The notes under the pieces are model-generated. The model saw nothing but the letters and a program-made list of their open reading frames with translations, had not been told where the DNA came from and did not search any database. Below, in pieces: positions 1 through 58,830 of a stretch of 64,000 bases of DNA (its first letter is position 1; the number at the start of each line of letters is the position of its first letter). This DNA is from Candidatus Poribacteria bacterium. Lineage in GTDB: Bacteria; Poribacteria; WGA-4E; WGA-3G. The DNA lies in contig CAXXLX010000001.1 of NCBI GenBank assembly GCA_963665235.2, forward strand, positions 544,001 through 608,000, read 5' to 3'. The position numbers and the translations under genes were made by a program.

Positions 1-393
1 GCTCTCGTGAATGGATGAACCGTTATGCGCAAACGCATTGCGTTGCATCCCCCACGCCTGATTGAGATAATCTTCTGAGCCGGTGCCGTGCAAATCCGGT
101 GGCCACTTATAGCCATCTATCCAAATCATATCATCGCCTTCACCCCACCATGTGCCTTGGAAGTTGGTAACCGACAGATTACAACCGATATAGTGCCCTC
201 TCCCTTCGGCAGACAGGATAAGATAGTTGTTATCCCATGCGAGTCGTTCCGCATTGATGATATCCGCTTCCGCCGTGTTGACTTTGATTTCGTGTCCCCA
301 GCCATCACACGGATTTTCGCGATGAAATTGTGCATGAAAATGTGCCACATCCTCACCGTGGGGTGTCGGGTATAACTCGTAAACCATCAACAT
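1..393 (-). pseudogene. 5'-truncated DUF2961/GH172-family glycoside hydrolase, running off the window start
   Basis: My translation of a frame missing from the ORF track gives FHAQFHRENP...NYLILSAEGRGHYIGCNLSV...WWGEGDDMIWIDG...LHGTGSEDYLNQAWG, typical GH172 motifs. The expected N-terminal part is absent and an IS605 end lies ~55 bp upstream. Confidence 0.75.
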
Positions 394-462
394 AAGTCAT
401 AGTTCAATTTTCCTATATATGCATCACACTGCGAATTCATGTTGTAGTGATACTCACAACGC

Positions 463-1752
463 CTAAAGGCGTGTGCTTCTTTGCCTCCTCAGGGGAGGCT
501 TACTTGATTTGAGCCCCGAAAACGGGGACCACTTATCAAGTCGACGCAGGTGCGGATTAAACCGAACACCTGTGGGGGATACCACAGCCCCGACTACAGG
601 GTTGAAAAGCCAGCCCTGATACTTTGTCAAAATGTTGCTTGCCCACACAACGTCTCTGTGTCCGTTCCAACCGCATTTAGAACAGTGGTAATTTCTGCCA
701 CTCGGCTTCTTGCGATTACGGCAACTCGGACAAGTTTGTGAGGTATAGGCTTCGTTTTCTGTCTCAACGTTGATGCCTACCGCTTTTGCTTTGTAGGTTA
801 TCAGGTGTTCGATTTTTGAGAAAGACCACTGGTGCAACTTCTGATTGGCGTTTTTGCTATAGTTAATAGATTGTCGTATGTGCTTAATGTCACCAATGAC
901 AATCGTTTCTATCCTTCGCTCTCGGCAGGAAGAAACAAATCGAGACGTGATTTTGTGACGCATATCACGTAATTGATTAGCAAGCGATGCAAGCGTTCTA
1001 TCTTTAGCACGTTTTAGTTTTTTCCAACGCTTGCTATAACGTTTGCACCTTGATAGTTTTTGGTTGATTTTCGCCTTAAACTTTTCGCAATACCTTGCTT
1101 TACTTCGGATTTCGCGGCCGTTATAAATCTCGGAATTAAGTCCATCAAAAGCAACAATCGGATGTATTTCGCCCATGTCCACAGCAACCACAGTACCCGC
1201 TTTTACTTTTGTCCGCTTCGGTTGCGTTACGTAGGTTGCGTGGAACTCGTATTGTTTCGTGGTTCGGTTATAGACAAGTGAGACTTCAGCGGGCACTTTC
1301 TTATGGAACTTCTTATCAATCTTAATCCAGAGTGGGTCTCTGCCTTTGCCCAGAGAAAGCCGTAGCTTACCGTGCTTGTAGGTGATACCTGTAGCACGCC
1401 ACGTGAAAGTATGGAACTTATGCTTTGGAGGCTTTGCTTTGGGATTAGAAGCTTTATTAGAAAAGAAAGAACGCCTTGCACCGCAATAGTCGTCTATGAT
1501 TGCCTGAACGCTATGGGCATGGCAGGGATACCGCTTGAATTTGAGATATGCCTTAAGTCCACCGTCTGAAATCCAAAAGCCTTTTCGCCTGTGTGTTTTG
1601 AACGCAAGCGATACCGTTTTTGAATAGATACGACCGCCAAGCCGATTCATCTCGTCTAACTGCTCTGTAGGCTTGGCGGTTCCTATGATATAAGTGAGAT
1701 AATCATTTTTGGACCTAGACATTCTTTTCATCCTCAATATACTTTTTGACAA
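463..1752 (-). CDS. tnpB: RNA-guided endonuclease TnpB
   Basis: RuvC-I VDMG, CPSC/CSKC zinc finger, RuvC-III HRD; lies downstream of tnpA. Confidence 0.93.
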   Translation of the reverse strand: MSKSILRMKRMSRSKNDYLTYIIGTAKPTEQLDEMNRLGGRIYSKTVSLAFKTHRRKGFWISDGGLKAYLKFKRYPCHAHSVQAIIDDYCGARRSFFSNKASNPKAKPPKHKFHTFTWRATGITYKHGKLRLSLGKGRDPLWIKIDKKFHKKVPAEVSLVYNRTTKQYEFHATYVTQPKRTKVKAGTVVAVDMGEIHPIVAFDGLNSEIYNGREIRSKARYCEKFKAKINQKLSRCKRYSKRWKKLKRAKDRTLASLANQLRDMRHKITSRFVSSCRERRIETIVIGDIKHIRQSINYSKNANQKLHQWSFSKIEHLITYKAKAVGINVETENEAYTSQTCPSCRNRKKPSGRNYHCSKCGWNGHRDVVWASNILTKYQGWLFNPVVGAVVSPTGVRFNPHLRRLDKWSPFSGLKSSKPPLRRQRSTRL

Positions 1753-2128
1753 CTTCTAAGGATACACACCCAACCGACGATATGAATTTGGAACGCGTCC
1801 ACAGAGAGGGTAAACCGGATTTTAGGTGTGGAAATCCCTCACGCAAGACTTTAGAGGTGAAACCTTTTAGCATCCAAACTGTCCGAGTGACTGGCACTTT
1901 CGGATTGGTTTCTATGATAAGATGCACAGGGTCTTCCATCACCTCACTGGCACACACCTTAAAATCTAAATCGGTTTGTTTGGAGCATATCAGCTGATGC
2001 AACCGTTCTTGTATAGGTTCGGTTAAAACCTTGCGCCGATACTTCGGACACCAGATAACAGGATACTGACAACTATAGACAAGGTTCGTATCAGAATACC
2101 AACTCTTTTCTGGGTTCTTAATAAACAT
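1715..2128 (-). CDS. tnpA: IS200-type Y1 transposase TnpA with a degenerate HUH motif
   Basis: WCPKYRRKVL, LWTRSKF and KKYIE motifs. The HUH motif reads DPVH instead of DHVH. Confidence 0.9.
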   Translation of the reverse strand: MFIKNPEKSWYSDTNLVYSCQYPVIWCPKYRRKVLTEPIQERLHQLICSKQTDLDFKVCASEVMEDPVHLIIETNPKVPVTRTVWMLKGFTSKVLREGFPHLKSGLPSLWTRSKFISSVGCVSLEVVKKYIEDEKNV

Positions 2129-2346
2129 TATACTATATCCTTTATCTGTTAGTTTCTCTAATATAGGATAACATATTTTTTAGATAATGTCAACTATTTT
2201 AGCTGTCACAGAGGCACGGGCGTTACGGGGTTGGACCCACAGCTAAAGCAGTGGGATTGTTAAGTGAGTCCCTTCACTATCAATTATAACACATCCATAC
2301 AAAAAAGCAACAGAAAAATCTATTTCTCAGCCGCTGTCCCGATTAT

Positions 2347-2844
2347 CAAGTCTTCCGCTACAAAACCCCCGTGCTTTAGCTGGGGGATGTAGTAGCGGCG
2401 CATGAGCTAAAATTTTAATTTGACTTTTGCATTAAAATGTGGTATAATATATATATCATCAGTGGTTCGGATTACCACCTTCAACGCCACCAATGTTGAA
2501 GTTCCGAACCTCAACCTATGGTAGGGTTGTGTGCTGATGTTCTGGCGATACCCAGTCAATATCCACATTTTTGTGCAATGCTTTCGGTATCCAAAAGACG
2601 GGTCATGCTGCATTGGATACCAAAGCACTGATTCACAAGCATAAAGAAGGTGCGAAGCACGAGGGCAGGGCATTGTCCTTTGAGTTAGGGGCAGTAAGAC
2701 TTGGAACAGCCCAAGCATCTCCGTTGAGGATGTCCTCGGTGGGACCTCGGACGTTCACACGTCTGAAAACCACAATCCAATAGCTAACGCGTAGCGGAAC
2801 TTTTTAAAAGAATCTCCCTTGCTTTAGCTGGGAGAGTATGTCAA
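2347..2844 (+). mobile_element. Non-autonomous, ORF-less IS605 derivative
   Basis: Left end: TTAT target, 15 nt, AAAA, hairpin CCCCCGTGCTTTAGCTGGGGG. Right end: GAAT, hairpin CTCCCTTGCTTTAGCTGGGAG, then AGTATGTCAA. No credible ORF between the ends. Confidence 0.85.
2420..2448 (+). promoter_or_regulatory. Sigma70 promoter inside the ORF-less IS605 derivative
   Basis: TTGACT-17 nt-TATAAT with an extended -10 TG. Confidence 0.8.
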
Positions 2845-2864
2845 GTACTCAAACTTGACTATCA
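2455..2864 (+). ncRNA. Putative stand-alone TnpB omegaRNA (reRNA)-like RNA including a flanking guide
   Basis: Series of hairpins, a GTAAGAC-hairpin-GCATCTCCGTTGA segment resembling tnpB 3'-end scaffolds, and an end at the right-end TCAA followed by flank. Confidence 0.55.
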
Positions 2865-3066
2865 ACCCTGTAATGAGACGCAGTGTTTATTGCCACAGGT
2901 GTTAGATATTCCGTTGAAATTGCGGTAAATTGATGGGTTTCGCTTTTTTGGCGATTAGCGATTGGCGATTAGCAAATAGCAAGAGGAAGAGGGGTTTGAC
3001 GCGCAGCAGAGATATGCTTAGCATCACAACCTTCTTGCTAATTGCCAAACTGCCAAAGAAGGAGGT

Positions 3067-3425
3067 ATGATTATGTTTTCACGGCTTCAAGCTCATCGGG
3101 ACAGACGGAAAAGACGATTCGATGAAGCTAGAACCGAAGGAAAAGCCGAAGGTAAAACCGAGGCTTACCGAACGCGAGTTTGAAAAAAGTTTTGACCTAG
3201 AGCGTTCTCTGGTAGTTTTAGCAAAAAACAGCACAAACTAGGAAGTATGTGCTACAATTATGCTGCTTTTTTCTCGGTGAAACAGGTTTAGAGCAAACGG
3301 ATATTTATTATCAAGCTCACGTTTACCGAGAAATCGCTGAATGGAATAGCAGACGGCTCAACGCACTGGCACGAAATGAACCATTCACCGAACTGTTCCC
3401 TGAACCGCCTGACACTACTCATTAG
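3067..3425 (+). pseudogene. Small hypothetical protein interrupted by a MITE
   Basis: AAGGAGG RBS. Removing 3171-3328 restores the frame MIMFSRLQ...EGKAEGKTEAYR|EIAEWNSRRLNALARNEPF...stop. Confidence 0.7.
3171..3323 (-). mobile_element. MITE family A copy 1 (153 bp)
   Basis: 13-bp TIR AACGYGAGYTTGA; 5-bp TSD TACCG. Confidence 0.9.
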
Positions 3426-3528
3426 CGATTGGCGATTGGCGATTGGCAAGAAATATAAGAGGGTTCTTTCTCTTGCTAATTGCCAACTGCCAACTGCAAC
3501 CTTAACAATATTGTAGGCTAAGTTTATC

Positions 3529-6500
3529 CTACCTGTTAGATTTTACAGATGCCCAGGTCCGGAACTGTTTGCCAGAGGCGGATACATGTCCACGCATCCG
3601 AACCGTCTGCAGCTGTTCACGCACACCGCTAAACGACACATCCTCTATACGATAGTAATACGAAACATTCGGCTTCGCTGTTGTGTCTTTCCATTCATAC
3701 TGCTGACGCTCACCGGTCGTGCCAGCACCCTGAATTAGCTCAGCATTAATCTGTTTGAACGCACCGGTCCGCGACTCACTGCGATAGATATTGAACCCCG
3801 CATTGTCTAACTCGGACTCGGTCGTCCACTTCAGCACAACTTCTGTCCCTGTGAACAGCGCATCGAAATGCGACAACGATACAGGTAAATAACCCCCCTG
3901 ACGATAGCCCGGATTACCAATATCTGTGCTATGTCCCCAGTAAGTTCTAAAACTGAGTTTCAAATCCTTCGCTATTTTCCAACTTGAGAGTTCTGTGCCG
4001 GGAAGCGGTGCCCCATTTTCATACTTACGGATTAATGAATTTCTATATCCCTCTAACGTTTTGCCAGCGGGCAGTTGCCAGGCGGGTTTGTCCATCGTCT
4101 TGGCATCACCATCAAGGTTGCCAATCTTATCAACCATTTTACCGTTGGCATCGGACAGCATCAGACTAAACCCGGCACTACTTAACAACAAATATCGGTT
4201 TACGTTAAATAGTTCACTTATACCGGGCATGTCTGTGTGCTGCACTGACAAATCGTACACTTTGTGCTCTGGGAAATGCCCAGAGTTGGAGCTTTTCTGC
4301 GTTACGATTAGCAACGTCTGTTTCGGGCCGACGTGAACGCCCTCAAAGGTGAAACCCCACGTTGTGTTTCGCAACGTGTTCGGTTCAGGTTTCACTTCTA
4401 AGTTAAACTGCCACCCTCTCAGGTCAACAGTTTTGTTAGAGGTATTGTAAAATTCTATCCACTGCGGGGCTGCACGACCGAAGTCTCGCGTAGCGAACAT
4501 TAGCTCACTGATAGAAACCGGACCACTCGGCAGATTCTTGCCCTTCGGGTAATCGTTGAGATGGCCGGGGGTGCCGAGACTGGTTGTCTTCGGGGCATCC
4601 TTATCGTAGCCGCGCCCCTCCTGGTATCCGCTGGCTGTCCACGCCGCTGCGAGATAGCCGGGCAACTTCTTCGTTGCGGTCGTGCCGGGTATTTTCTTAT
4701 CGGTCCGCCGCCACGCTGCATCCAGGGCGAAGACTGGACGTATTCCTGTCGGTTTCTGAATATACAGGGGCCACATCAACGTTTCGTGGTCCAGATTGTT
4801 CGGCCAATAGGTGCTGGCTACATCAACAATCGCTTCGGAGGTGCCAATTCTATCCTTCTTCTCACGCAAAGTGAGAAGGTATTTCTCCTCGACCGGAAGC
4901 GGAAGTTTCAACGCTTTGGTGGTGATATACCTTGAGACGTTCCAGCTTTCCAGAACAGCCTCATCCCAGCGTCCGGTATAGATGTCAATTCCCGCTGCGA
5001 TGGCGGTTTTCTCCGTCGCACTGTTGAGAATCAAAAGGATATGGTTCGGCAGCAACTCGTAACTTGGAAGTGTGATAATCTTTTTCTCTTCCAGGGTCTT
5101 GCCGTTGCCTGTTACGATGCCGATTTCCCAATCTCCAAGATTAACGCTCCGCTGTCCTACGTTCTTCAGTTCTATCCAGTCATTTTTATCCTCGGTGCCG
5201 TTGTATATCTCGTTGAAGATGACTTTGCCGAAATCGGAGCCATATTCCTCTGTAGACCCTGTGTCAACCAGTTGCGACTCGGTTTCAAAATCAATCGTTA
5301 TACTCACATCTGCAGCAGGCCCATTTCGGACACCGTCTGTCCCCGCATTCACCTTCACAGTGAGGACGATTTCGCCAGCAGTATCAACAGGGGGCGTGAT
5401 GGTAACCGTGTAGTCCGTGCCGCTGCCTGTCAAAGTGAATGTCGCATCGTCTATGCCATACATCCGAGTTGTCGTCAATGTCATATCGCCCAATTCAAAC
5501 CCGTTGACAGGTTTGGAGAAGGTAATATCGACATCAAACGGACCCGTCTGCACATCTTGCGGCACTGTGAAGCGGACCGTCGGTACTGTTGTATCAAAAG
5601 CGATACTTTCGGATGTTCTAACGGCAGTCGGCACATCATACACACCATCGTTTGCAGCATCAGCACGGACTTGAACCTGTAACGTGCCTTTGGCATTGGC
5701 GGGCACGGTGATTGTGGTTGTATAGTTGGCACCTTCACCTGTCAATACTGATGAAACGGTGCCGCCGCTGGTATCGGCACGCGTTGTGATAAGGGTAATA
5801 TCATCTGTTTCAAACTCCGTGACAGGTTTGGAGAAGGTGATACCGACATCAAACGTGTTGTTAAGTTGCGTTCCCGAAGGTTCGCTGAAAACTAGCGTCG
5901 TCGGATTCGTATTCACAGGTGGCGTGTTAACCGGGTTCGTATTCACAGGTGGCGTGTTAACCGGGTTCGTATTCGCAGGTGGCGTGTTAACCGGGTTCGT
6001 ATTCGCAGGTGGCGTGTTAACCGGGTTCGTATTCGCAGGTGGCGTGTTAACCGGGTTCGTATTCGCAGGTGGCGTGTTAACCGGGTTCGTATTCGCAGGT
6101 GGCGTGTTAACCGGGTTCGTATTCGCAGGTGGCGTGTTAACGGATGTATCAAAATTTACCGATACACTGGTATCTGCAACAGGTCCGTTGCGCACGCCAT
6201 CCGTCGCTGCATCTGCTTTCACGGTGAGGGCAATATCCCCCGCAGCATTCGCAGGTGGAGTGAGGGTAGCCGTGTAGTCGGTGCCGCTGCCCGTCAAAGT
6301 GAATGTCGCATCGCCTGTGCCACTTGTCCGAGTTGTTGTCAATGTCATATCGCCTACTTCAAACCCGGTGACAGACTTCGAGAAGGTGATACCGACATCA
6401 AAGGCACTCGCCTGCACACCTTGCGGCACTGTGAAACTGACCGTCGGGAGTGTCGTATCAAAAGCGATACTTGCCGACATTTGAGCGGTAGTCGGCACAT

Positions 6501-9500
6501 CGTGTGTGCCATCGTTGGCAGCATTTGCAGCAATTGAAAGCGTGGCACTTCCTGCCGCATCGGTTGGCGATGTAATCGTAGCTGTCCAAGACGTACCCGA
6601 ACCGCTCAACGATACCGAGGCAGTGCCAGAGGTGCTCGCCACTGTGATGTCACTTGCCGCAAACCCGGTGACCGATTTAGAGAAGGTAATACCAACATTA
6701 AACGTGTTGGCGCGTTGCGTCCCCGAAGGTTCACTGAAAACTAGCGTAGCCGGGGTCGTATTCACAGGCGGTGTGTTAATCGGATCCGAAAGCACCGGGG
6801 GCGTGTTAATCGGATCTGTATTCAGAGGCGGCTTGCTAACCTGTGTATCAAAAGATACCGATACACTCGCATTTTCAGCCGGTCCGTTGCGCACACCATC
6901 CGACGCTGCATCCGCTTTCACAGTGAAAACGACTCGACCGATAGCATCCGCAGGCGGGGTGAGGGTAGCCGTGTAGTCGGTGCCGCTACCCGTCAAAGTG
7001 AATGTCGCATCGCCTGTGCCACTTGTCCGAGTTGTTGTCAAGGTCATATCGCCTACTTCAAACCCAGTGACAGACCTGGAGAAGGTGATATCGACATCAA
7101 ACGGACCTGTCTGGACATTTGGCGGCACTGTGAAACTGACCGTCGGCGTTGTAGTGTCAAATGTAATAGCAGCGGAGCTGACGTTGCTTTCAGGTGCACT
7201 GCGGGCACCATCCGTTACTGAATCGCCTGAGATTTCCAACGTGACAGCACCTTTTGCCTCCGTGGGCGAGGTAACTGTAGCGGTATAAGAGGTGCCTGAA
7301 CCGCTGAGCGTCACTGTGGCATCGCCGGAGCCATTGGTGTGTGTTGTGTTCACCGTTATGTCACTTGCCTCAAAACCTGTGACCGATTTAGAAAAGGTAA
7401 TCGGTACATCAAATGTATCTGCTACCTGTGTGCCCGGGGGTTCCGTGAAGCTGACCGTTGCCACCGTGGTATCGTAGGCGATGGGTTGTGATGTCTCCGT
7501 GGTTGCCGGCACCTCATTTGCCCTATCATACGCGGCATGTTTGCCGACAGCTAATGTCACCGTGCCTTCGGCTGTTGTCGGTGAGGTCACCGTTGCGGTG
7601 TAAGACTTGCCGGAACCGCTCAACGTGAACGTGGCATTGCCGGAGCCGCTGGTGTGGGTTGTGGCAATTGTGATGTCACCCGCTTCAAACCCTTGGACAT
7701 CTTTGGAGAAGGTAATCCCAACGTCAAACGTTTTCGCTATCTGGACACCCTTCGGTTCACTGAAATTCACCGTGCCTTGTGTCGTATCAAAAGGGATAGG
7801 ATTAGACACTGCTATGTTTGCTGGGGCAGTGCGTGTACCATCCGTAACAGCATTTGCGGCGACGTAAAGGATGATGATACCTTTGGCATTTGTCGGTGAG
7901 ATGACCGAGGCGGAGTAGTCAAGGGATAAGCCCGATATGACCAACGTCACTGAGGCTGTGCCCGTGCTACTCGTCACGGTGATGTCGCTTGCATCAAACC
8001 CCGTAATATTCTTAGAGAAGGTAATCGGAACGGCAAAGCCGCTGCCTAACTGTGTGCCTACGGGTTCATCGAAACTCACCGTTGCCACCGTCGTATCAAA
8101 ACTAATCGCATCGGAGGTCGCTTTACTTGCTGGACCGGTGCGGGTGCCATCTGTTACCGAGTCTGCCGCAACTTCCAAGGTGATAGTCCCTTTCGTTGCC
8201 GTGGGAGATGTCACCGTTGCGGTGTAGGAAGTACCCGAACCGCTCAATGACACTGAGGCATTGCCACTGCTACTTGTCACGGTGATGTCACTCGCAGCAA
8301 ATCCTGTGACAGACTTGGAGATGGTAATCCCAACGTTAAACGTGTCTCTGTATTGTGTGCCTACAGGTTCTGTAAAGTCTACCGTTGCGACCGTCGTATC
8401 AAAACTAATCGCATCCGATGTCGCTTTACTTGCAGGACCCGTGCGCGTGCCATCCGTGACTGCATTTTTCGCAACTTCTAAGGTGATGGTGCCTTTGGCT
8501 GCCGTGGGTGAGGTCACCGTGGCGGTGTAGTCTTTGCCTGAACCGCTCAATGACACCGAAGCAGTGCCGGTGCTACTTGTCACTGTAATGTCACTGGCAG
8601 CAAATCCTGTGACAGACTTGGAGATGGTAATCGGAACGTCGAAAGTATTTGCTACCTGGATGCCTGCCGGTTCTGTAAAGTCTACCGTTGCGACTGTCGT
8701 ATCAAAACTAATCGCATCCGATGTGGCTTTACTTGCTGGACCTGTGCGGGTGCCATCCGTAACAGCATCTTTCGCAACTGCCAAGGTGATAGTCCCTTTT
8801 GCTGCCGTGGGTGAGGTCACCGTGGCGGTGTAGTCTTTGCCGGAACCGCTCAATGACACAGAGGCAGTGCCGGTGCTACTTGTCACTGTAATGTCACTGG
8901 CAGCAAATCCTGTGACACTCTTATTGAAGGTGATAGGCACATCAAACGTATTTGCTACTTGTGTTCCTGCCGGTTCTGTGAAAGTCACCGTTGCAACTGT
9001 TGTATCAAAACTAATCGCATCGGAGGTGACTTTGCTTGCAGGCCCCGTGCGCGTGCCATCCGTAACAGCATCTTTCGCAACTTCCAACGTGATAGTCCCT
9101 TTCGCTGTTGTCGGTGAGGTCACCGTGGCGGTATAGGAAGTGCCGGAACCGCTTAACGTTACCGTGGCATCACCTGAGCCGCTTGTGCGCGTCGTCGTTA
9201 CCGTAATATCGCTCGCTACAAATCCTGTGACAGACTTAGAGATGGTAATCGGAACGTCAAAGGTGGCTCCATACTGTGTGCCTGCCGGTTCTGTAAAGTC
9301 TACCGTTGCGACTGTTGTATCAAAGCTAATCGCATCGGAGGTGGCTTTACTAGCAGGACCGGTGCGTGTGCCATCCGTGACAGCATTTTTCGCAACCTCC
9401 AACGTGATAGTCCCTTTCGCTGCCGTGGGCGAGGTAACCGTGGCGGTATAGGAAGTCCCCGAACCGCTTAACGTTACCGTAGCATCGCCTGAGCCGCTTG

Positions 9501-12500
9501 TGCGCGTCGTCGTCACCGTGATGTCGCTTGCTACAAACCCTGTGACGCTCTTAGAAATGGTAATCGGCACGTCAAACGTATTTGCTACCTGCGTTCCTTC
9601 CGGTTCGGTGAAGCTGACCGTTGCGACTGTTGTATCAAAGCTAATCGCATCGGAGGTGGCTTTACTAGCAGGACCGGTGCGTGTGCCATCCGTGACAGCA
9701 TTTTTCGCAACTTCCAACGTGATAGTCCCTTTCGCTGCCGTGGGTGATGTCACTGTGGCGGTATAGGAAGTACCTGAACCGCTCAACGTTACCGTGGCAT
9801 CGCCTGAGCCACTCGTGCGCGTCGTCGTCACCGTAATATCGCTCGCTGCAAACCCTGTGACGCTCTTGGAGATAGTGATCGGCACGTCAAACGTATCTGC
9901 TACCTGCGTTCCTTCCGGTTCTGTGAAATCTACCGTTGCGACTGTTGTATCAAAGCTAATCGCATCGGAGGTGGCTTTGCTTGCAGGCCCCGAGCGTGTG
10001 CCATCCGAGACTGAGTGCGCGGAGATTTCCAGCCTTACCGTACCTTTCGCTGCTGAGGGTAAAGAAATCGTAGCGGTCCAAGAGGTACCTGAACCGCTCA
10101 ACGTTACTGTGGCATTACCCGTGCCGCTTGTGCGCGTCGTTGCCACGGTGAGGTCGGGGCCAGCCTCCTTGGGATCCGGTACCGTTGAAAACCCAGTAAC
10201 GCTCTTATTGAAGGTAATCGGGAGGTCAAACGTTGCTGCTACTTGTGTACCTTCGGGTTCTGTGAAACTCACCGTCGGTACTCTGGTATCAAAAGAGATT
10301 GTCCCGGTTTCTGTCGCACTGGACGGTCCCTCATGTTCTCCTGTATCTTCCACAGCATCCGCCTGCATGGAGAGGTTAACGGTGCCTGCAGCATTTGCTG
10401 GAAGTGTGATTTTCGCTGTGAAGTTGGTGCCAGAGCTGCCGACGATTCCCCCGACACCTGGTATACGGAATGTCGCATCACCTGTACCACTGGTGCGCGT
10501 CGTCGTCAACGTCAAATCGTTTAATTCAAAATCCAAAATGAACTTGGAGAATTTAATCGGCACATCAAAATTGGTTACCTGCACACCTTGTGGCACCGTG
10601 TAGGTGGCTGACGGCGTTGTGTTGTCAAAACTGATAGACTCGGATGTCGTTGCACTGACAGGACCGCTGCGATTTTGGCTATCAGCTACTGCGTCTTTGG
10701 CGACTTGTAGTGTGATGGTGCCTTTCGTTTCCGTGGATGGCGTAACATTAACAGAGTAACCAGCACCTGAACCTAAAAGCGTAAACGTTGCATTGCCGGT
10801 GCCACTGGTAAGCGTCGTCGTTATCGTAATATCGCTGGCGGCAAACCCTGTGACAGACTTACCGAAGGCAATCGGCACACTAAACGTATCTTCGTATTGT
10901 ATGCCTACGGGTTCTCCGAAAGTCACCGATGGCGGTGCCGTATCAAAGCTGATAGCATCGGAGGTCGTTTTACTGGCAGGACCGGTGCGCGTGCCATCCG
11001 TAACCGAGTCTGCTGCAACCGCCAGTGTAACGGTGCCTTTCGCATTTGTCGGCACGGTGATTGCGGCTGTATAGTCTTTGCCGGAGCCGCTGAGGGTGAA
11101 CGTTGCATCCCCCGTGCCACTCGTGCGCGTTGTCGTGATCGTGATGTCAGCCGCTGCAAATCCTGTAACGCTCTTAGAGAACGTGATAGGCAGGTCAAAG
11201 TTAGTAGCTTGTCCCACCGTGGGTTCCGTGAAATCTACCGTTGCCACCGTCGTATCAAAACTAATCGCAGAAGAGGTGGCTTTGCTGGCAGGACCCGTGC
11301 GTGTACCATCTGTTACAGAGTCTGCTGCAACAGCCAACGTGATGGTACCCTTTGCTGCTGTCGGTGAGGTCACCGTGGCGGTATAAGATGAACCAGAACC
11401 GCTCAACGCCACCGTGGCATCCCCTGTGCCGCTTGTGCGCGTCGTCGTCACCGTGATGTCACTCGCTGTAAATTCTGCGACAGACTTAGAGATCGTGATA
11501 GGCACGGTAAAGGTGTTCCCGTACTGTGATCCTTCGGGTTCCGTGAAACTCACCGTTGGCGGTGTGGTATCAAAACTAATCGCATCGGAGTCAGTTTTCT
11601 GTGAAGGACCTGTGCGCGTACCATCGGTGACAGCACCTTTGGCAACTGCCAGTGTAACGGTGCCTTTCGCATTTGTCGGCACGGTGATTGTGGCTGTGTA
11701 GACTTTGCCAGAACCGCTGAGCGTGAACGTGGCATCGCCGGAGCCACTCGTGCGCGTGGTATTGATCGTAATATCGTCCGATGTAAACCCGGTAACGCTC
11801 TTAGAGAACGTAATCTCAACGCTGAAGTTCTTGGCTTGGACATCCGTGGGTTCCGTGAAATCCACTGTCGGCGGTGTCGTGTCAAAACTAATCGCATCGG
11901 AGTCAGTTTTCTGTGAAGGACCTGTGCGCGTACCATCTGTTACCGAACCCCCGGCGACTTCCAGCCTGATAGTGCCTTTCGCGTTTGTCGGCACGGTGAT
12001 TGTGGCTTTGTAGTCCTTGCCGGAGCCGCTGAGCGTGAACGTTGCATCCCCTGTACCACTCGTGCGCGTGGTGTTGAGGTTGATGTCAGCCGCTGCAAAT
12101 CCTGTAACGCTCTTAGAGAACGTGATAGGCAGGTCAAAGGTCGTTACCTGTGTGCTCGTGGGTTCCGTGAAATCTACTTTCGGCACCGTGGTATCAAAAC
12201 TCATCGCATCGGATGTCGCTTTGCTTGCAGGCCCCGTGCGCGTCCCATCCGTTACCGAGTCTGCGGCAACTTCCAAGGTGATAGTGCCTTTGGCTGCAGT
12301 CGGTGATGTCACCGTTGCGGTCCAAGAGGTACCTGAACCATTCAATGTGAACGTAGCATTGCCTGTGCCGCTTGTGCGCGTTGTTTTTATCGTAATATCG
12401 GCCGCTGCAAATCCTGTGACGCTCTTACTGAAAGTAATCGGCACGTCAAACGTATTTGTCACTTGTGTGCCTGTGGGCTCCGTGAAATCTACCGTTGCGA

Positions 12501-13137
12501 CTGTTGTATCAAAACTAATCGCATCGGATGTCGCTTTACTGGCAGGCCCGGTGACGCTGTTGCTATCGGTGACAGCATTTGCGGCAACTTCCAATGTAAT
12601 CGTGCCTTTTGCTGCCGTGGGTGATGTCACCGTGGCAGTCCAGGAAGTGCCTGAACCGCTCAAAGCCACCGTTGCATCCCCTGTACCGCTTGTGCGCGTC
12701 GTCGTCACCGTGATGTCGCTCGATGCAAACCCTGTAACACTCTTATTGAAGGTAATCGGCACGTCAAAGGTGGTTCCGGACTGTGAGCTTTCGGGTTCTG
12801 TGAAACCCACCGTTATCGGCACGGTATCAAAACTAATACTATTAGAGGTTTCATCCGAGGAGGGCCCGTTAAGATTTTGCTTAAAACCTACCATATTGGC
12901 TTTTATGGTAAGGGTTACACTGCCTGCCGCGTTACTCGGCGGTGTGACCGTGGCGGTGTAGCTACTGCCCGAGCCGCTCAAAGCCACCGTTGCATCCCCC
13001 GTGCCACTTGTGCGGGTTGTTGCCACGTCAATGTCATCCGTCGCGTCAAAGTTGGTGACAGTGTGACTGAAATCAATTGGCACGGTGAACGTACTGCCTG
13101 TCTGTGTGCCTTCGGGTTCTGTGAAATCCACCATCAA
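3529..13137 (-). CDS. Giant Ig-like repeat surface protein/adhesin with C-terminal lamin-tail-like domains
   Basis: About 24 Thr/Ser-rich ~100-aa repeats (FTEP...ISFDT), two LTD-like domains (VIFNEI...DWIELKN; ISELM...QWIEFYN) and C-terminal GKQFRTWASVK. The true N-terminus lies upstream and is frameshifted. Confidence 0.88.
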   Translation of the reverse strand: MMVDFTEPEGTQTGSTFTVPIDFSHTVTNFDATDDIDVATTRTSGTGDATVALSGSGSSYTATVTPPSNAAGSVTLTIKANMVGFKQNLNGPSSDETSNSISFDTVPITVGFTEPESSQSGTTFDVPITFNKSVTGFASSDITVTTTRTSGTGDATVALSGSGTSWTATVTSPTAAKGTITLEVAANAVTDSNSVTGPASKATSDAISFDTTVATVDFTEPTGTQVTNTFDVPITFSKSVTGFAAADITIKTTRTSGTGNATFTLNGSGTSWTATVTSPTAAKGTITLEVAADSVTDGTRTGPASKATSDAMSFDTTVPKVDFTEPTSTQVTTFDLPITFSKSVTGFAAADINLNTTRTSGTGDATFTLSGSGKDYKATITVPTNAKGTIRLEVAGGSVTDGTRTGPSQKTDSDAISFDTTPPTVDFTEPTDVQAKNFSVEITFSKSVTGFTSDDITINTTRTSGSGDATFTLSGSGKVYTATITVPTNAKGTVTLAVAKGAVTDGTRTGPSQKTDSDAISFDTTPPTVSFTEPEGSQYGNTFTVPITISKSVAEFTASDITVTTTRTSGTGDATVALSGSGSSYTATVTSPTAAKGTITLAVAADSVTDGTRTGPASKATSSAISFDTTVATVDFTEPTVGQATNFDLPITFSKSVTGFAAADITITTTRTSGTGDATFTLSGSGKDYTAAITVPTNAKGTVTLAVAADSVTDGTRTGPASKTTSDAISFDTAPPSVTFGEPVGIQYEDTFSVPIAFGKSVTGFAASDITITTTLTSGTGNATFTLLGSGAGYSVNVTPSTETKGTITLQVAKDAVADSQNRSGPVSATTSESISFDNTTPSATYTVPQGVQVTNFDVPIKFSKFILDFELNDLTLTTTRTSGTGDATFRIPGVGGIVGSSGTNFTAKITLPANAAGTVNLSMQADAVEDTGEHEGPSSATETGTISFDTRVPTVSFTEPEGTQVAATFDLPITFNKSVTGFSTVPDPKEAGPDLTVATTRTSGTGNATVTLSGSGTSWTATISLPSAAKGTVRLEISAHSVSDGTRSGPASKATSDAISFDTTVATVDFTEPEGTQVADTFDVPITISKSVTGFAASDITVTTTRTSGSGDATVTLSGSGTSYTATVTSPTAAKGTITLEVAKNAVTDGTRTGPASKATSDAISFDTTVATVSFTEPEGTQVANTFDVPITISKSVTGFVASDITVTTTRTSGSGDATVTLSGSGTSYTATVTSPTAAKGTITLEVAKNAVTDGTRTGPASKATSDAISFDTTVATVDFTEPAGTQYGATFDVPITISKSVTGFVASDITVTTTRTSGSGDATVTLSGSGTSYTATVTSPTTAKGTITLEVAKDAVTDGTRTGPASKVTSDAISFDTTVATVTFTEPAGTQVANTFDVPITFNKSVTGFAASDITVTSSTGTASVSLSGSGKDYTATVTSPTAAKGTITLAVAKDAVTDGTRTGPASKATSDAISFDTTVATVDFTEPAGIQVANTFDVPITISKSVTGFAASDITVTSSTGTASVSLSGSGKDYTATVTSPTAAKGTITLEVAKNAVTDGTRTGPASKATSDAISFDTTVATVDFTEPVGTQYRDTFNVGITISKSVTGFAASDITVTSSSGNASVSLSGSGTSYTATVTSPTATKGTITLEVAADSVTDGTRTGPASKATSDAISFDTTVATVSFDEPVGTQLGSGFAVPITFSKNITGFDASDITVTSSTGTASVTLVISGLSLDYSASVISPTNAKGIIILYVAANAVTDGTRTAPANIAVSNPIPFDTTQGTVNFSEPKGVQIAKTFDVGITFSKDVQGFEAGDITIATTHTSGSGNATFTLSGSGKSYTATVTSPTTAEGTVTLAVGKHAAYDRANEVPATTETSQPIAYDTTVATVSFTEPPGTQVADTFDVPITFSKSVTGFEASDITVNTTHTNGSGDATVTLSGSGTSYTATVTSPTEAKGAVTLEISGDSVTDGARSAPESNVSSAAITFDTTTPTVSFTVPPNVQTGPFDVDITFSRSVTGFEVGDMTLTTTRTSGTGDATFTLTGSGTDYTATLTPPADAIGRVVFTVKADAASDGVRNGPAENASVSVSFDTQVSKPPLNTDPINTPPVLSDPINTPPVNTTPATLVFSEPSGTQRANTFNVGITFSKSVTGFAASDITVASTSGTASVSLSGSGTSWTATITSPTDAAGSATLSIAANAANDGTHDVPTTAQMSASIAFDTTLPTVSFTVPQGVQASAFDVGITFSKSVTGFEVGDMTLTTTRTSGTGDATFTLTGSGTDYTATLTPPANAAGDIALTVKADAATDGVRNGPVADTSVSVNFDTSVNTPPANTNPVNTPPANTNPVNTPPANTNPVNTPPANTNPVNTPPANTNPVNTPPANTNPVNTPPVNTNPVNTPPVNTNPTTLVFSEPSGTQLNNTFDVGITFSKPVTEFETDDITLITTRADTSGGTVSSVLTGEGANYTTTITVPANAKGTLQVQVRADAANDGVYDVPTAVRTSESIAFDTTVPTVRFTVPQDVQTGPFDVDITFSKPVNGFELGDMTLTTTRMYGIDDATFTLTGSGTDYTVTITPPVDTAGEIVLTVKVNAGTDGVRNGPAADVSITIDFETESQLVDTGSTEEYGSDFGKVIFNEIYNGTEDKNDWIELKNVGQRSVNLGDWEIGIVTGNGKTLEEKKIITLPSYELLPNHILLILNSATEKTAIAAGIDIYTGRWDEAVLESWNVSRYITTKALKLPLPVEEKYLLTLREKKDRIGTSEAIVDVASTYWPNNLDHETLMWPLYIQKPTGIRPVFALDAAWRRTDKKIPGTTATKKLPGYLAAAWTASGYQEGRGYDKDAPKTTSLGTPGHLNDYPKGKNLPSGPVSISELMFATRDFGRAAPQWIEFYNTSNKTVDLRGWQFNLEVKPEPNTLRNTTWGFTFEGVHVGPKQTLLIVTQKSSNSGHFPEHKVYDLSVQHTDMPGISELFNVNRYLLLSSAGFSLMLSDANGKMVDKIGNLDGDAKTMDKPAWQLPAGKTLEGYRNSLIRKYENGAPLPGTELSSWKIAKDLKLSFRTYWGHSTDIGNPGYRQGGYLPVSLSHFDALFTGTEVVLKWTTESELDNAGFNIYRSESRTGAFKQINAELIQGAGTTGERQQYEWKDTTAKPNVSYYYRIEDVSFSGVREQLQTVRMRGHVSASGKQFRTWASVKSNR
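5902..6141 (-). repeat. Intragenic 30-bp tandem repeat, ~8 copies, encoding NTPPANTNPV
   Basis: Direct 30-bp periodicity visible in the sequence. Confidence 0.95.
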
Positions 13138-38690: not shown

Positions 38691-39053
38691 TACCATTTCT
38701 AATTGGAAATGCATAAACTTCCTGCACTTTATTGTAGCATAAACTTCCAGTTTGTGCACTTTATTGTAGCATAAACTTCCAGTTTGTGCACTTTATTGTA
38801 GCATAAACTTCCAGTTTGTGCACTTTATTGTAGCATAAACTTCCAGTTTGTTCTTTATTGTAGCATAAACTTCCAGTTTGTGCACTTTATTTTCCAGTTT
38901 GTGCACTTTATTGTAGCATAAACTTCCAGTTTGTGCACTTTATTGTAGCATAAACTTCCAGTTTGTGAGCATCATAAACTTCCAGTTTGTGTCTTCCGTT
39001 CTCCGTTTGATTTCTAACAACCGGTAATGATAGAATAATTAATAAAAATGGTA
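38691..39053. mobile_element. MITE family B carrying a REP array
   Basis: TIR TACCATTTYTA; 3-bp TSD TAA. Confidence 0.8.
38710..38991 (+). repeat. 32-bp tandem REP array (GTAGCATAAACTTCCAGTTTGTGC)
   Basis: About 9 full or degenerate copies, each GTAG plus a hairpin. Confidence 0.9.
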
Positions 39054-58605: not shown

Positions 58606-58634
58606 ATTATACCATGTTTTGGGGTCAATGTCAA
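58606..58634 (-). promoter_or_regulatory. Consensus sigma70 promoter for tnpB
   Basis: TTGACA-17 nt-TATAAT with an extended TG. Confidence 0.8.
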
Positions 58635-58830
58635 GTTAAAAACGATGTACCAACGGGGTTAGCGGGCTTTCCTCCCAAAGCTAAAGCATTGGGCTTCTCG
58701 CCCGAAGAAGGTGATTTTTTCCGGTTTGCTCATAACGGCATACTCTCAAATTTTTGAGGTTGTAGGTCAGGGCCATCTTCAATAGAGACAGCCCGTATAT
58801 TTAGAGGTACAAACTAGCGGAGTGCTTGTT

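What the first reader, a model, noticed from the sequence alone, without database searches (positions are those of the whole stretch)
2347..2864. ORF-less IS605 derivative that appears to express only an enlarged omegaRNA-like RNA
Seen: both HUH ends are intact (TTAT target with AAAA guide; GAAT guide with terminal TCAA). Inside is a near-perfect promoter (TTGACT-17-TATAAT) and ~390 nt made almost entirely of hairpins, e.g. GGTTCGGA/TCCGAACC, TGCTTTCGGTATCCAA/TTGGATACCAAAGCA, CTTGG/CCAAG and GGACGT/ACGTCT. The 3' part has a GTAAGAC...GCATCTCCGTTGA segment like tnpB-end scaffolds, and no tnpB remnant is evident. Known: TnpB guides derive from the right end plus flank. Inference: a mobile stand-alone guide-RNA cassette that loads a TnpB in trans, with guide GTACTCAAACTTGACTATCA and TAM TTAT. 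It sits 75 bp from a tnpA/tnpB element whose ends predict a different target (TGAA).
Basis: partly seen in the sequence, partly recalled or inferred. Interest (0 to 1): 0.8.

Follow-up and report, generated by a model that had tools for sequence, protein, structure and literature searches.

The report
Gene-less transposon keeping guide RNA
This is one of nine copies of a small protein-less jumping element that keeps only the promoter, a folded leader and the guide-RNA part of its parent TnpB transposon; guide-only elements of this kind are already known, but the conserved extra RNA fold in this one was not found described.

Summary
Window 2347-2844 is a 498-bp ORF-less IS200/IS605 element. It has 9 copies in the genome, all 3' of TTAT, in 8 different flank contexts. 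A contig in two public runs joins 2346 directly to 2845, which looks like an empty site.

The last 194 nt (2651-2844) are a complete TnpB omegaRNA scaffold. A covariance model built only from 9 tnpB-linked 3' ends matches it full-length at 87 bits. The left end, with its 11/12 promoter, is shared with ten 1.4-kb tnpB-only elements (400-aa TnpB) and three tnpA-tnpB elements in the same genome.

The "enlarged" 5' half (2455-2660) is not random hairpins. It is the pseudoknotted 5'-UTR leader of tnpB plus a hairpin from the RuvC-I coding region, so tnpB remnants do exist. This composite recurs in ORF-less elements of 7 of 100 sampled genomes of the same family. In 11 of the 12 loci fetched from them an omegaRNA scaffold follows directly. 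Covariation is strong: 54 of 63 pairs show changes on both sides.

Stand-alone omegaRNA elements (PATEs) are already in print. Expression and TnpB loading are untested. Verdict: a new variant of a known kind, of moderate interest.

The parts
2343..2346 (+). Target / TAM tetranucleotide TTAT (flank, not part of the element)
   Evidence: TTAT directly precedes 9 of 9 copies. It also precedes the related tnpB-only and tnpA-tnpB elements.
2347..2419 (+). Left end with subterminal hairpin (CCCCC 2366-2370 / GGGGG 2382-2386), preceded by AAAA 2362-2365
   Evidence: Read. It is 88-98% identical to the LEs of ten 1.4-kb tnpB-only elements and of tnpA-tnpB elements.
2420..2448 (+). Sigma-70-type promoter TTGACT-17-TATAAT with extended TG
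   Evidence: 11 of 12 matches. It is kept in the copies and in the LEs of the tnpB and tnpA-tnpB relatives.
2455..2539 (+). Leader: three-way junction (P1-P4) homologous to the 5' UTR of tnpB, with a loop-loop pseudoknot 2473-2478 x 2518-2523
   Evidence: Model R3, built from 11 tnpB-linked leaders, aligns 2445-2539 full-length at 21.2 bits, E 9.4e-5 in a 601-nt search. Pseudoknot: 98.1% of 54 cells paired against 33-52% when slid. The same pseudoknot appears in tnpB leaders.
2540..2578 (+). P5 and P6 hairpins; P6 may be a relic of the first tnpB codons
   Evidence: Helices 5 and 6 (87.1% and 82.1% of cells paired). The codon-relic reading rests on comparison by eye and is weak.
2579..2627 (+). 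P7 long hairpin; its 18-nt apical loop AAGACGGGTCATGCTGCA (2595-2612) is a relic of the RuvC-I coding motif (KTGxAA) of tnpB
   Evidence: Model R2 positions ~124-172 hit inside tnpB genes at the RuvC-I site in 11 loci at E <= 0.003. The loop is identical to that of locus L063. In helix 7, 14 of 14 pairs show changes on both sides.
2651..2844 (+). Complete TnpB omegaRNA scaffold, ending at the right-end hairpin (2814-2834) and cleavage site TCAA (2841-2844)
   Evidence: Model R1, built only from 9 tnpB-linked 3' ends, matches at 87.2 bits, E 1.3e-24, model positions 1-169 of 169. nhmmer matches to the 3' ends of the ten 1.4-kb elements score 47-53 bits.
2727..2750 (+). 24-nt secondary insertion (tiny dispersed repeat) in the linker between scaffold stems 2 and 3
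   Evidence: Present in 3 of 9 copies, plus a shorter variant in the C3 copy. The same 24-mer (<= 2 mismatches) occurs at 20 sites in several sequence contexts.
2845..2864 (+). Flanking sequence that a read-through transcript would carry as guide
   Evidence: By position only, which is inference. No terminator lies before it. No other TTAT + 12-nt-seed site for it exists in the assembly.

Best explanation
Window 2347-2844 is a non-autonomous, protein-less IS200/IS605 element (PATE type). It arose from a tnpB-only (IS1341-type) element by internal deletions that removed nearly all of tnpB.

It keeps these parts:
1. Both ends needed for TnpA (Y1) 'peel-and-paste' transposition 3' of TTAT.
2. The element's own promoter in the left end.
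3. The pseudoknotted 5'-UTR leader of tnpB.
4. A hairpin from the RuvC-I coding region.
5. The complete omegaRNA scaffold abutting the right end.

Proposed mechanism (inferred):
- The promoter drives a transcript of about 390-410 nt that runs through TCAA into the flank.
- TnpB made by the ten 1.4-kb sister elements binds the 3' scaffold and trims the 5' part.
- TnpB then uses the 16-20 flank bases as guide to cut the empty TTAT + flank site left after TnpA excision.
- The copy is restored by recombination.

Shown here: copy number, ends, target, an empty-site contig, scaffold homology, structural covariation, and the origin of the 5' half. Inferred: transcription, TnpB loading, cleavage, and any role of the 5' domain.
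For: - Copies and ends: 9 copies, TTAT in 9 of 9, 8 flank contexts.
- Empty site: joint 2346->2845 skipping 498 bases in contigs of runs X1 and X2.
- No coding capacity: no Pfam hit for its ORFs. The 103-aa antisense ORF has no homologue and is broken in 3 of 9 copies.
- Promoter 11 of 12 and no terminator.
- Scaffold: R1, from 9 tnpB-linked ends with 14 of 37 pairs compensatory, hits 2651-2844 at 87.2 bits. It hits the other 8 copies at 68.2-99.6 bits.
- Partners in the genome: same LE and TTAT in ten tnpB-only elements, 9 with an intact 400/401-aa ORF. Their product matches OrfB_IS605 and the TNB domain. Three tnpA-tnpB elements share the LE.
- The 5' domain is conserved. R2 finds full-length homologues in 7 of 100 other same-family genomes. 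In 11 of the 12 loci fetched an R1 scaffold follows directly.
- Covariation: 90.9% of 738 cells paired and 54 of 63 pairs changed on both sides, against 35-40% of cells and 13-23 pairs when slid. A structure-blind MAFFT + RNAalifold run gives 26 of 41 pairs compensatory.
- The guides have no second TTAT-adjacent target in the assembly, as expected for homing.
- Published precedent: PATEs 'often encode omegaRNAs' acted on in trans (PMC10055086 Discussion, passages read). Stand-alone omegaRNAs work in trans (PMC10691335 introduction). TnpB trims 5' sequence from longer RNAs (PMC10278001 Results).
Against: - No RNA data: no RNA run is listed. Transcription and RNA ends are unknown.
- No tnpB gene in this genome carries this scaffold's stem-1 sequence: 0 of 7 sites with that motif (<= 2 mismatches) lie at a tnpB 3' end.
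- By eye in the alignments, the most similar tnpB-linked scaffold is in another genome (G017, locus L088). That TnpB is only 45-47% identical to the best TnpBs here. Whether the 400-aa TnpB accepts this scaffold is therefore open; it shares the last ~45 nt at ~93% and scores only 47-53 bits overall.
- The autonomous tnpA-tnpB elements share the LE but end in ...TCTATCAC, not ...GTATGTCAA.
- Three or four copies, including this one, carry a 24-nt insertion inside the scaffold.
- In the empty-site joint the letters between the two sides are marked 'not known', the shorter side is 30 letters, and the kind of run is recorded as '?'.
- The leader homology rests on a modest score: 21.2 bits in a 601-nt search, and no hit with default filters.
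Confidence: 0.62

Rival explanations
1. It is a purely parasitic MITE. The element is moved by TnpA in trans, and its RNA-like features are inherited baggage of the parent tnpB element. No TnpB uses them.
For: No expression data. No TnpB here has exactly this scaffold type. Copies carry indels and a 24-nt insertion in the scaffold. One truncated and one divergent copy exist.
Against: The ORF-less lineage keeps both the scaffold and the 5' domain base-paired across genera. Compensatory changes occur in 54 of 63 pairs and in 26 of 41 on a structure-blind alignment. Unpaired loop motifs such as the 18-nt P7 loop stay conserved without any coding need. The indels in stem 1 leave a hairpin in place. 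Baggage would decay.
Confidence: 0.14
2. It is a regulatory or decoy RNA. The transcript, which holds the tnpB leader, an internal tnpB hairpin and the scaffold, titrates TnpB or a factor that binds the tnpB leader. It would tune tnpB translation or nuclease activity instead of guiding cleavage, or as well as guiding it.
For: The 5' half is the tnpB leader. In tnpB elements its 5' strand is complementary both to an internal copy and to the start-codon copy of one 7-9-nt word, which looks like a translational switch (alignment). A region of one TnpB mRNA inhibits DNA cleavage in vitro (PMC10278001 Results). The leader and P7 are kept with covariation although nothing is left to translate.
Against: No direct evidence. 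The complete scaffold, the intact right end and the lack of a terminator are exactly what a guide needs. A decoy would not need mobile ends.
Confidence: 0.12
3. The conserved helices act in single-stranded DNA. They would fold on the excised top strand and help TnpA-mediated excision or integration, or protect the circle. They would not act in RNA.
For: IS200/IS605 elements move as single-stranded DNA, and the strand that carries the end hairpins has the same sense as the RNA (established knowledge of IS608, recalled). Covariation alone cannot tell RNA from DNA.
Against: Many conserved pairs are G-U/U-G (for example GU:6 at pair 23-61 and GU:9 at 181-206). These are weaker in DNA. The 3' part is homologous to omegaRNA scaffolds. 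A strong promoter sits directly upstream. The leader part is a 5' UTR in tnpB elements.
Confidence: 0.07
4. The interior encodes a small protein: the 103-aa antisense ORF 2407-2718 or the 70-aa sense ORF 2571-2783.
For: Both ORFs exist. The 103/104-aa ORF is intact in 6 of 9 copies.
Against: No Pfam family. No homologue among proteins of 56-181 residues. The ORF is broken or shifted in 3 of 9 copies. The homologous elements of other genera differ by many indels.
Confidence: 0.02

Closest known systems
PATE-like minimal IS200/IS605 elements that encode omegaRNAs (Geobacillus stearothermophilus; Meers et al., PMC10055086, passages read)
   Same: Protein-less. LE and RE are shared with tnpB elements of the same genome. 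Presumed to be moved by TnpA in trans. Carries an omegaRNA that a TnpB encoded elsewhere would have to use.
   Different: Here about 200 nt of conserved, pseudoknotted 5' RNA (the tnpB leader plus the RuvC-I hairpin) and the element's own promoter are kept as well. This composite recurs in other genomes of the bacterial family. I could not see that paper's figures or supplements, so similar extra domains there cannot be excluded.
Stand-alone omegaRNAs of OMEGA systems (as summarised in the introduction of PMC10691335, which cites Altae-Tran et al. 2021; the 2021 paper itself was not read)
   Same: Mobilised omegaRNA loci without effector or transposase, found in genomes that also hold effector loci. 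They are reported to work in trans.
   Different: Those statements come from other organisms and effectors. Trans activity was not tested here, and the best-matching scaffold type has no cognate tnpB in this genome.
IS1341-type tnpB-only elements: the ten 1.4-kb sister copies in this genome (e.g. C1:63516-64945)
   Same: Same TTAT target, same LE with promoter (88-93% identical over ~113 nt), same last ~43 nt of RE, and the same scaffold architecture.
   Different: The sister elements encode a 400-aa TnpB and have a different, shorter leader. The small element has lost the ORF, and its scaffold stems differ by compensatory changes.
Cis-regulatory region of AmaTnpB mRNA that inhibits DNA cleavage (Nety et al., PMC10278001, Results read)
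   Same: A part of the tnpB transcript outside the mature omegaRNA has an RNA-level effect on the RNP. TnpB trims 5' sequence from long precursors.
   Different: That region lies next to RuvC-II and acts through proposed complementarity to the scaffold. Here the retained pieces are the 5' UTR and a RuvC-I hairpin, and no effect has been measured.
Rfam IS605-orfB-I (RF03065) and all other Rfam 15 families
   Same: A structured RNA associated with IS605 orfB (tnpB).
   Different: No match anywhere: cmscan of window 1-6000 at E <= 1, of the whole window at gathering score, and of 4 further loci at E <= 5 gave only chance-level hits. RF03065 has 0 matches in the own genome, but the control genomes gave none either.

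Membership tests
Non-autonomous IS200/IS605 element (PATE) | Subterminal hairpins at both ends, and no terminal inverted repeats | tested here: met
   LE hairpin 2366-2386 and RE hairpin 2814-2834 share the loop core GCTTTAGCT. The same hairpins occur in tnpB and tnpA-tnpB relatives.
Non-autonomous IS200/IS605 element (PATE) | Insertion 3' of a fixed tetranucleotide without target duplication | tested here: met
   TTAT precedes 9 of 9 copies. The empty-site joint 2346->2845 skips exactly the 498 element bases (letters between the two sides marked not known).
Non-autonomous IS200/IS605 element (PATE) | No protein-coding gene | tested here: met
   Longest ORFs are 103 and 70 aa. No Pfam hit, no homologue, broken in 3 of 9 copies. 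tblastx of 2450-2700 against the genome: best non-self E 0.22.
Non-autonomous IS200/IS605 element (PATE) | Several copies in different flanks, and a Y1 transposase element with matching ends in the genome | tested here: met
   9 copies in 8 contexts. 13 Y1_Tnp matches in the genome. tnpA-tnpB elements at C1:3153011 and C1:33271 have LEs 88-90% identical over ~120 nt. Actual mobilisation was not tested.
TnpB omegaRNA | Scaffold homologous to the 3' end of tnpB genes, ending at the transposon right boundary | tested here: met
   R1, built from 9 tnpB-linked ends with no ORF-less sequence in the seed, hits 2651-2844 over model positions 1-169 of 169 at 87.2 bits, E 1.3e-24.
TnpB omegaRNA | Conserved secondary structure supported by covariation | tested here: met
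   14 of 37 pairs are compensatory in the seed. The small element keeps stems 1-3 through compensatory changes (alignments).
TnpB omegaRNA | Transcribed, with a guide of about 16-20 nt from the flank | not testable with these tools
   No RNA run is listed for this sequence. Only a promoter match and the absence of a terminator are known.
TnpB omegaRNA | Bound by a TnpB, and directs TAM-dependent DNA cleavage | not testable with these tools
   Needs a pull-down and an interference assay. Intact TnpB genes with the same TAM are present.
Rfam IS605-orfB-I (RF03065) / any Rfam 15 family | Match to the family covariance model at its gathering score | tested here: not met
   0 matches. RF03065 has 0 in the own genome, with no control genome giving a match either.
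IStron (group I intron fused to an IS605 element) | Group I intron core at the 5' side of the element | tested here: not met
   No Rfam group I intron match at E <= 1 in 1-6000. The 5' domain is explained instead by the tnpB leader and the RuvC-I hairpin.

The most novel reading that the evidence does not exclude
The element belongs to an old, protein-less transposon lineage whose unit of selection is a composite RNA of about 390 nt: the pseudoknotted tnpB leader, a hairpin from inside the RuvC-I coding region, and the omegaRNA scaffold. If the 5' domain is functional (for TnpB recruitment, processing, stability, or control of nuclease activity), then tnpB mRNAs of this clade carry two undescribed cis-acting RNA elements. 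These are a leader switch that can pair with the start codon and an intragenic hairpin. Both would matter enough to survive loss of the gene.
Probability: 0.3. Interest if true: 0.65.

Novelty: new variant of a known kind. Interest (0 to 1): 0.45.

Why it matters
Guide-only derivatives of TnpB transposons are known, so the basic finding adds a well-documented case: precise ends, an apparent empty site, a full scaffold and candidate partners.

The additional point is that nearly all of tnpB was deleted while three structured RNA pieces were kept. These pieces then stayed base-paired, with many compensatory changes, in elements from several genomes of the same family. This points to RNA elements of the tnpB transcript other than the omegaRNA, namely a pseudoknotted leader and an intragenic hairpin. 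They may control TnpB expression or RNP formation, and they can be tested directly with simple reporter and interference assays. They could also matter for designing compact single-transcript TnpB editors.

Tried and rejected
- RNA evidence: the look-up of sequencing runs listed no RNA holder. Nothing can be said on expression.
- Rfam: no family matched. Only chance-level hits below gathering score appeared on four other loci. RF03065 gave nothing in the genome, and its controls gave nothing either.
- Simply decayed tnpB, tested by translation: tblastx of 2450-2700 gave 42 non-self hits of 162, best E 0.22, none at a tnpB. The remnants became visible only with covariance models.
- Copies elsewhere by DNA identity:
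  - BLAST in 40 relatives found only end segments. No match outside the own genome covered query 171-416.
  - An exact 22-mer scan of genome contigs gave 1 hit, which is a chance match inside a coding region of an unrelated MAG.
  - The same scan of metagenome contigs gave 0 hits.
  - The plasmid collection gave no match.
- Organism name: a tblastn of the TnpB against plasmids gave only <= 43.5% identical hits, best in cyanobacterial plasmids. The taxon was left unnamed.
- Leader model R3 with default filters found neither the element nor tnpB leaders of the other subtype. It is too insensitive to count for or against. With filters off it aligned.
- A cognate TnpB for this scaffold type: the TnpB linked to the most similar scaffold (L088) has no close relative here, best 45-47%.
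- A kissing contact between the P7 loop and the stem-1 loop was considered by eye. Both loops are invariant, so there is no covariation to test it, and it was dropped.
- Link between the element and the 32-nt tandem arrays: the arrays lie next to a solo LE (C1:470310) and next to a scaffold fragment (C2:317210). With 178 arrays in the genome this may be chance. The upstream repeats in G010 turned out to be a different nested inverted-repeat insertion.
- Earlier notes of this scan describe similar gene-less omegaRNA elements in other genomes. They were used as leads only.
Full report
**1. What is at the locus**

The sequence shows TTAT at 2343-2346 and an element that starts at C2347. The left-end hairpin is CCCCC/GGGGG (2366-2370 with 2382-2386), with AAAA directly 5' of it. 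The right-end hairpin is CTCCC/GGGAG (2814-2818 with 2830-2834), with GAAT 5' of it. The element ends in TCAA at 2841-2844.

The element proper is therefore 2347-2844 (498 nt). Positions 2845-2864 of the finding are flank.

A sigma-70-type promoter, TTGACT-17-TATAAT with an extended TG, spans 2420-2448 (11 of 12 matches). No terminator-like site lies between 2250 and 3100.

The RNA 2450-2884 folds much better than shuffles (z = -4.14; 0 of 100 shuffles fold as well).

ORFs of 103 aa (antisense) and 70 aa (sense) exist, but they do not look coding:
- Neither has a Pfam match.
- The 103-aa ORF has no homologue.
- It is broken or shifted in 3 of 9 copies.

**2. It is a mobile element**

The genome (5.31 Mb in 4 contigs; the window is C1:544001-608000) holds 9 near-full copies at 86-100% identity.

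In an alignment with 60-nt flanks, 9 of 9 copies are preceded by TTAT and 9 of 9 end in GTATGTCAA. Flanks differ, except that the C1:1018312 and C3:14408 copies share theirs. That gives 8 contexts. A 5'-rearranged copy (C1:1843776-1844104) and a divergent relative (C1:1298497-1298887) also exist.

When contigs of four public runs were laid on 2150-3050, runs X1 and X2 each gave a contig that joins 2346 to 2845. That skips exactly the 498 predicted bases. Caveats apply:
- The shorter side of the joint is 30 letters.
- The tool marks the letters between the two sides as 'not known'.
- The kind of run is recorded as '?'. No holder is on record as RNA, and the longest records reach 147 kb.

The joined flank is not present in the assembly. 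I read the joint as an empty site, from either excision or a population polymorphism.

**3. Relatives in the same genome**

The first ~113 nt (LE with promoter) and the last ~43 nt recur about 1.4 kb apart in ten elements. Each carries a 400/401-aa ORF; 9 are intact and one has a TAG. The product matches OrfB_IS605 and the Cas12f1-like TNB domain. It contains the motifs GYDFG, FETL and RDVNAA and two CxxC pairs. Assigning these to RuvC-I, II, III and the zinc finger is from recall.

Three tnpA-tnpB elements share the LE, the promoter and the TTAT target, but end in ...TCTATCAC.

The genome is rich in these genes: 44 TNB-domain matches and 13 Y1_Tnp matches.

The neighbouring tnpA/tnpB element (window 447-2276, minus strand) belongs to another family. 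It has other hairpins, and all 4 copies begin TGAA|GGGA...

Two further ORF-less families exist (C1:490743-491355 and C1:1891788-1892370).

**4. The 3' part is an omegaRNA scaffold**

A profile of the 9 copies matches the last ~160 nt of the ten 1.4-kb elements at 47-53 bits (E about 1e-13). It matches other tnpB 3' ends more weakly.

For a test that does not use the small element, I took tnpB homologues from 60 other genomes of the same family and cut out their 3' ends. I aligned nine long-type ends from nine genomes. RNAalifold gave 5 helices with 37 pairs, 14 of them with compensatory changes.

The covariance model R1 built from that alignment gave these hits:

| Target | Score |
|---|---|
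| Window 2651-2844 (model positions 1-169 of 169) | 87.2 bits, E 1.3e-24 |
| The other 8 full copies | 68.2-99.6 bits |
| The two other ORF-less families | 78.2 and 37.7 bits |
| A tnpB-linked control | 178.1 bits |

Stems 1-3 of the small element differ from the tnpB-linked ones by compensatory changes. For stem 1, AGGGCA/TGTCCT replaces AGGTTG/CAACCT around the conserved loop GGGCAT.

A 24-nt insertion (2727-2750) sits in the linker between stems 2 and 3. It regenerates the base it displaces.

**5. The 5' half**

BLAST-level and translated searches found nothing:
- tblastx gave a best E of 0.22.
- No interior match appeared in 40 relatives.
- An exact 22-mer scan gave one chance hit in genome contigs and none in metagenome contigs.

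A covariance model R2 of 2455-2660 did find full-length matches in 7 of 100 other genomes of the same family:

| Genome | Matches | Score |
|---|---|---|
| G098 | 1 | 144.9 bits |
| G074 | 1 | 101.3 bits |
| G001 | 3 | about 48-53 bits |
| G010 | 9 | 22-49 bits |
| G053, G067, G002 | weak, partly aligned | 21-27 bits |

In 11 of the 12 loci fetched, an R1 scaffold match follows directly, leaving no room for a gene. The twelfth locus ends 94 nt after the match.

All of these loci have a TTGAC.-17-TA..AT-type promoter upstream. Those with a scaffold end in ..ATGTCAA (GAGTATGTCAA in the eight stronger loci). Their LE hairpins are of several types. In G010 a further inverted-repeat insertion sits between the LE hairpin and the promoter.

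Covariation on the model-fitted alignment of 15 sequences:

| Measure | Observed | Partners slid by 1-3 columns |
|---|---|---|
| Cells paired (of 738) | 90.9% | 35-40% |
| Pairs changed on both sides (of 63) | 54 | 13-23 |

None of 500 shuffles reached the observed values.

A fitted alignment leans towards its own structure. I therefore repeated the test with plain MAFFT plus RNAalifold on 9 sequences. That gave 41 pairs, 26 of them compensatory, and the same helices.

**6. Where the 5' half comes from**

R2 was run with filters off over 24 loci (94,316 nt; 94 matches at E <= 10). It gave two consistent kinds of hit in tnpB elements.

(a) Model positions ~124-172 (the long hairpin P7) hit inside tnpB at one site in 11 loci at E <= 0.003, and in more loci at weaker E. 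That site is the codons for ..SEVxPKTGxAAGxDFG...
- The 18-nt loop of the window's P7 (2595-2612) is identical to the sequence at that site in locus L063.
- In 15 tnpB genes the flanking codons also pair: 86.7% of 195 cells against 21-55% when slid.
- Only 4 of 13 pairs there change on both sides, so covariation inside the gene is weak.

(b) Whole-model alignments fell on the 5' UTR just upstream of the tnpB start.
- These UTRs share one architecture: a closing helix, a long two-part hairpin and a short hairpin.
- A model R3 built from 11 tnpB-linked leaders found nothing with default filters. It also missed tnpB leaders of the other subtype, so that search is uninformative.
- With filters off on window 2300-2900, R3 aligned 2445-2539 over its full length at 21.2 bits, E 9.4e-5.

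A loop-loop pseudoknot links the internal loop of the long hairpin (2473-2478) with the loop of the short hairpin (2518-2523):
- In the 9 ORF-less sequences 98.1% of 54 cells pair, against 33-52% when slid, with 5 cells changed on both sides.
- In the 11 tnpB leaders the five central pairs show 16 cells changed on both sides, against 0-4 when slid.

So the 5' half is the tnpB leader plus a hairpin from the RuvC-I region, possibly with relics of the first codons (a weak reading by eye). The element is a deletion derivative of a tnpB-only element. What was kept is exactly the structured parts, and they stayed structured.

**7. How it most likely works**

- Shown: see sections 1-6.
- Inferred: the promoter makes a transcript of about 390-410 nt that runs through TCAA into the flank. 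A TnpB from the sister elements binds the scaffold and trims the 5' sequence, as shown in vitro for another TnpB (PMC10278001, Results read). It then cuts the empty TTAT + flank site after TnpA excision. This is the homing model of Meers et al. (PMC10055086, passages read).
- Consistent with homing: none of the 11 guides tested has a second TTAT-adjacent site with a 12-nt seed match (<= 1 mismatch) in the assembly.
- Open points:
  - There is no RNA evidence.
  - No tnpB here carries this scaffold's stem-1 sequence (0 of 7 sites).
  - By eye in the alignments, the most similar tnpB-linked scaffold is in G017. Its TnpB has only 45-47% identical relatives here.
- The role of the 5' domain is unknown. 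Candidates are transcript stability, help in RNP assembly or processing, or control of TnpB. Nety et al. saw an mRNA region that inhibits cleavage. In tnpB elements the leader's 5' strand is complementary both to an internal word and to its copy that contains the start codon (alignment). That arrangement looks like a translational switch.

**8. Comparison with what is known**

Meers et al. state that PATEs 'often encode omegaRNAs' that must be used in trans. The introduction of PMC10691335 states that mobilised stand-alone omegaRNAs exist and work in trans. The core interpretation is therefore already in print.

Earlier notes of this scan describe similar gene-less omegaRNA elements on other DNA. 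One of them (e1-5393901) also mentions an undescribed 5' domain. Those notes were unchecked leads.

For a pseudoknotted tnpB leader, or a RuvC-I hairpin retained in ORF-less elements, I found no description in the listings of my searches or in the passages I read. Rfam 15 has no matching family. Figures and supplements of the papers were not available to me and might bear on this.

**9. Verdict**

This is a new variant of a known kind. Its added value lies in the conserved composite RNA and in the two candidate cis-acting RNA elements of tnpB transcripts that it exposes.

Noticed in passing
window 2727-2750; also 19 other sites in the genome, e.g. G000 C1:121376, C1:727689, C1:1653888, C1:2521645: A 24-nt unit (AGGATGTCCTCGGTGGGACCTCGG, always followed by ACGT except at one site) occurs at 20 places (<= 2 mismatches) in several unrelated sequence contexts. 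It is present in only 3 of the 9 element copies, with a variant in a fourth. It behaves like a very small mobile insertion. The resemblance to the 'small dispersed repeats' of cyanobacteria is recalled, not tested.
   Followed up: partly
window 38723-38967; genome-wide: A 32-33-nt tandem repeat (unit containing ACTGGAAGTTTATGCTACGATAAAGA) without spacers forms about 898 units in 178 clusters across all four contigs, with arrays of up to 26 units. One array lies in this window. Two arrays share a leader-like flank. One abuts a solo left end with promoter (C1:470310-470423), and another abuts a fragment of this element's scaffold (C2:317210-317353). Its nature is unknown.
   Followed up: partly
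window 447-2276 (minus strand): Complete IS605-family element (tnpA 1715-2128, tnpB 463-1752) of a different family. Four related copies in the genome all begin TGAA|GGGA.. and end ..GAGTATCAC. In three other genomes (G053, G067; loci L097, L099, L103), ORF-less elements with a related 5' domain carry this TGAA-type left end.
   Followed up: partly
loci L066, L067, L071, L072, L075 and others (5' UTRs of tnpB genes in related genomes): In tnpB leaders the 5' strand of the closing helix is complementary to two copies of one 7-9-nt word. One copy is internal, and the other contains the tnpB start codon (for example CACGATGTA twice in L066). The words co-vary with the 5' strand between loci. This may be a translational switch.
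   Followed up: partly
G000 C1:490743-491355, C1:1891788-1892370, C1:1298497-1298887: Two further ORF-less families (612 and 582 bp) and one divergent 390-bp relative. They have the same kind of left end, a leader-like 5' structure, and an omegaRNA scaffold of another subtype (R1 scores 78.2 and 37.7 bits for the first two).
   Followed up: partly
loci L096, L102, L106 (genome G010): In G010 the homologous ORF-less elements carry a nested insertion of about 150-250 nt, with inverted repeats rich in GCAGGATT/AATCCTGC words, between the left-end hairpin and the promoter.
   Followed up: no
window 3529-13137 (minus strand): A 3202-aa ORF with 19 Big_12 Ig-like repeats and Lamin Tail Domains lies 685 bp downstream of the element. 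Short GCGATT/GGCGATT-rich repeats flank small ORFs at 2940-3480.
   Followed up: no
window ~58606-58698 and tnpB at ~57409-57612 (minus strand): A second tnpB element in the window (422-aa frame). Weak left-end and hairpin matches lie upstream of it.
   Followed up: no
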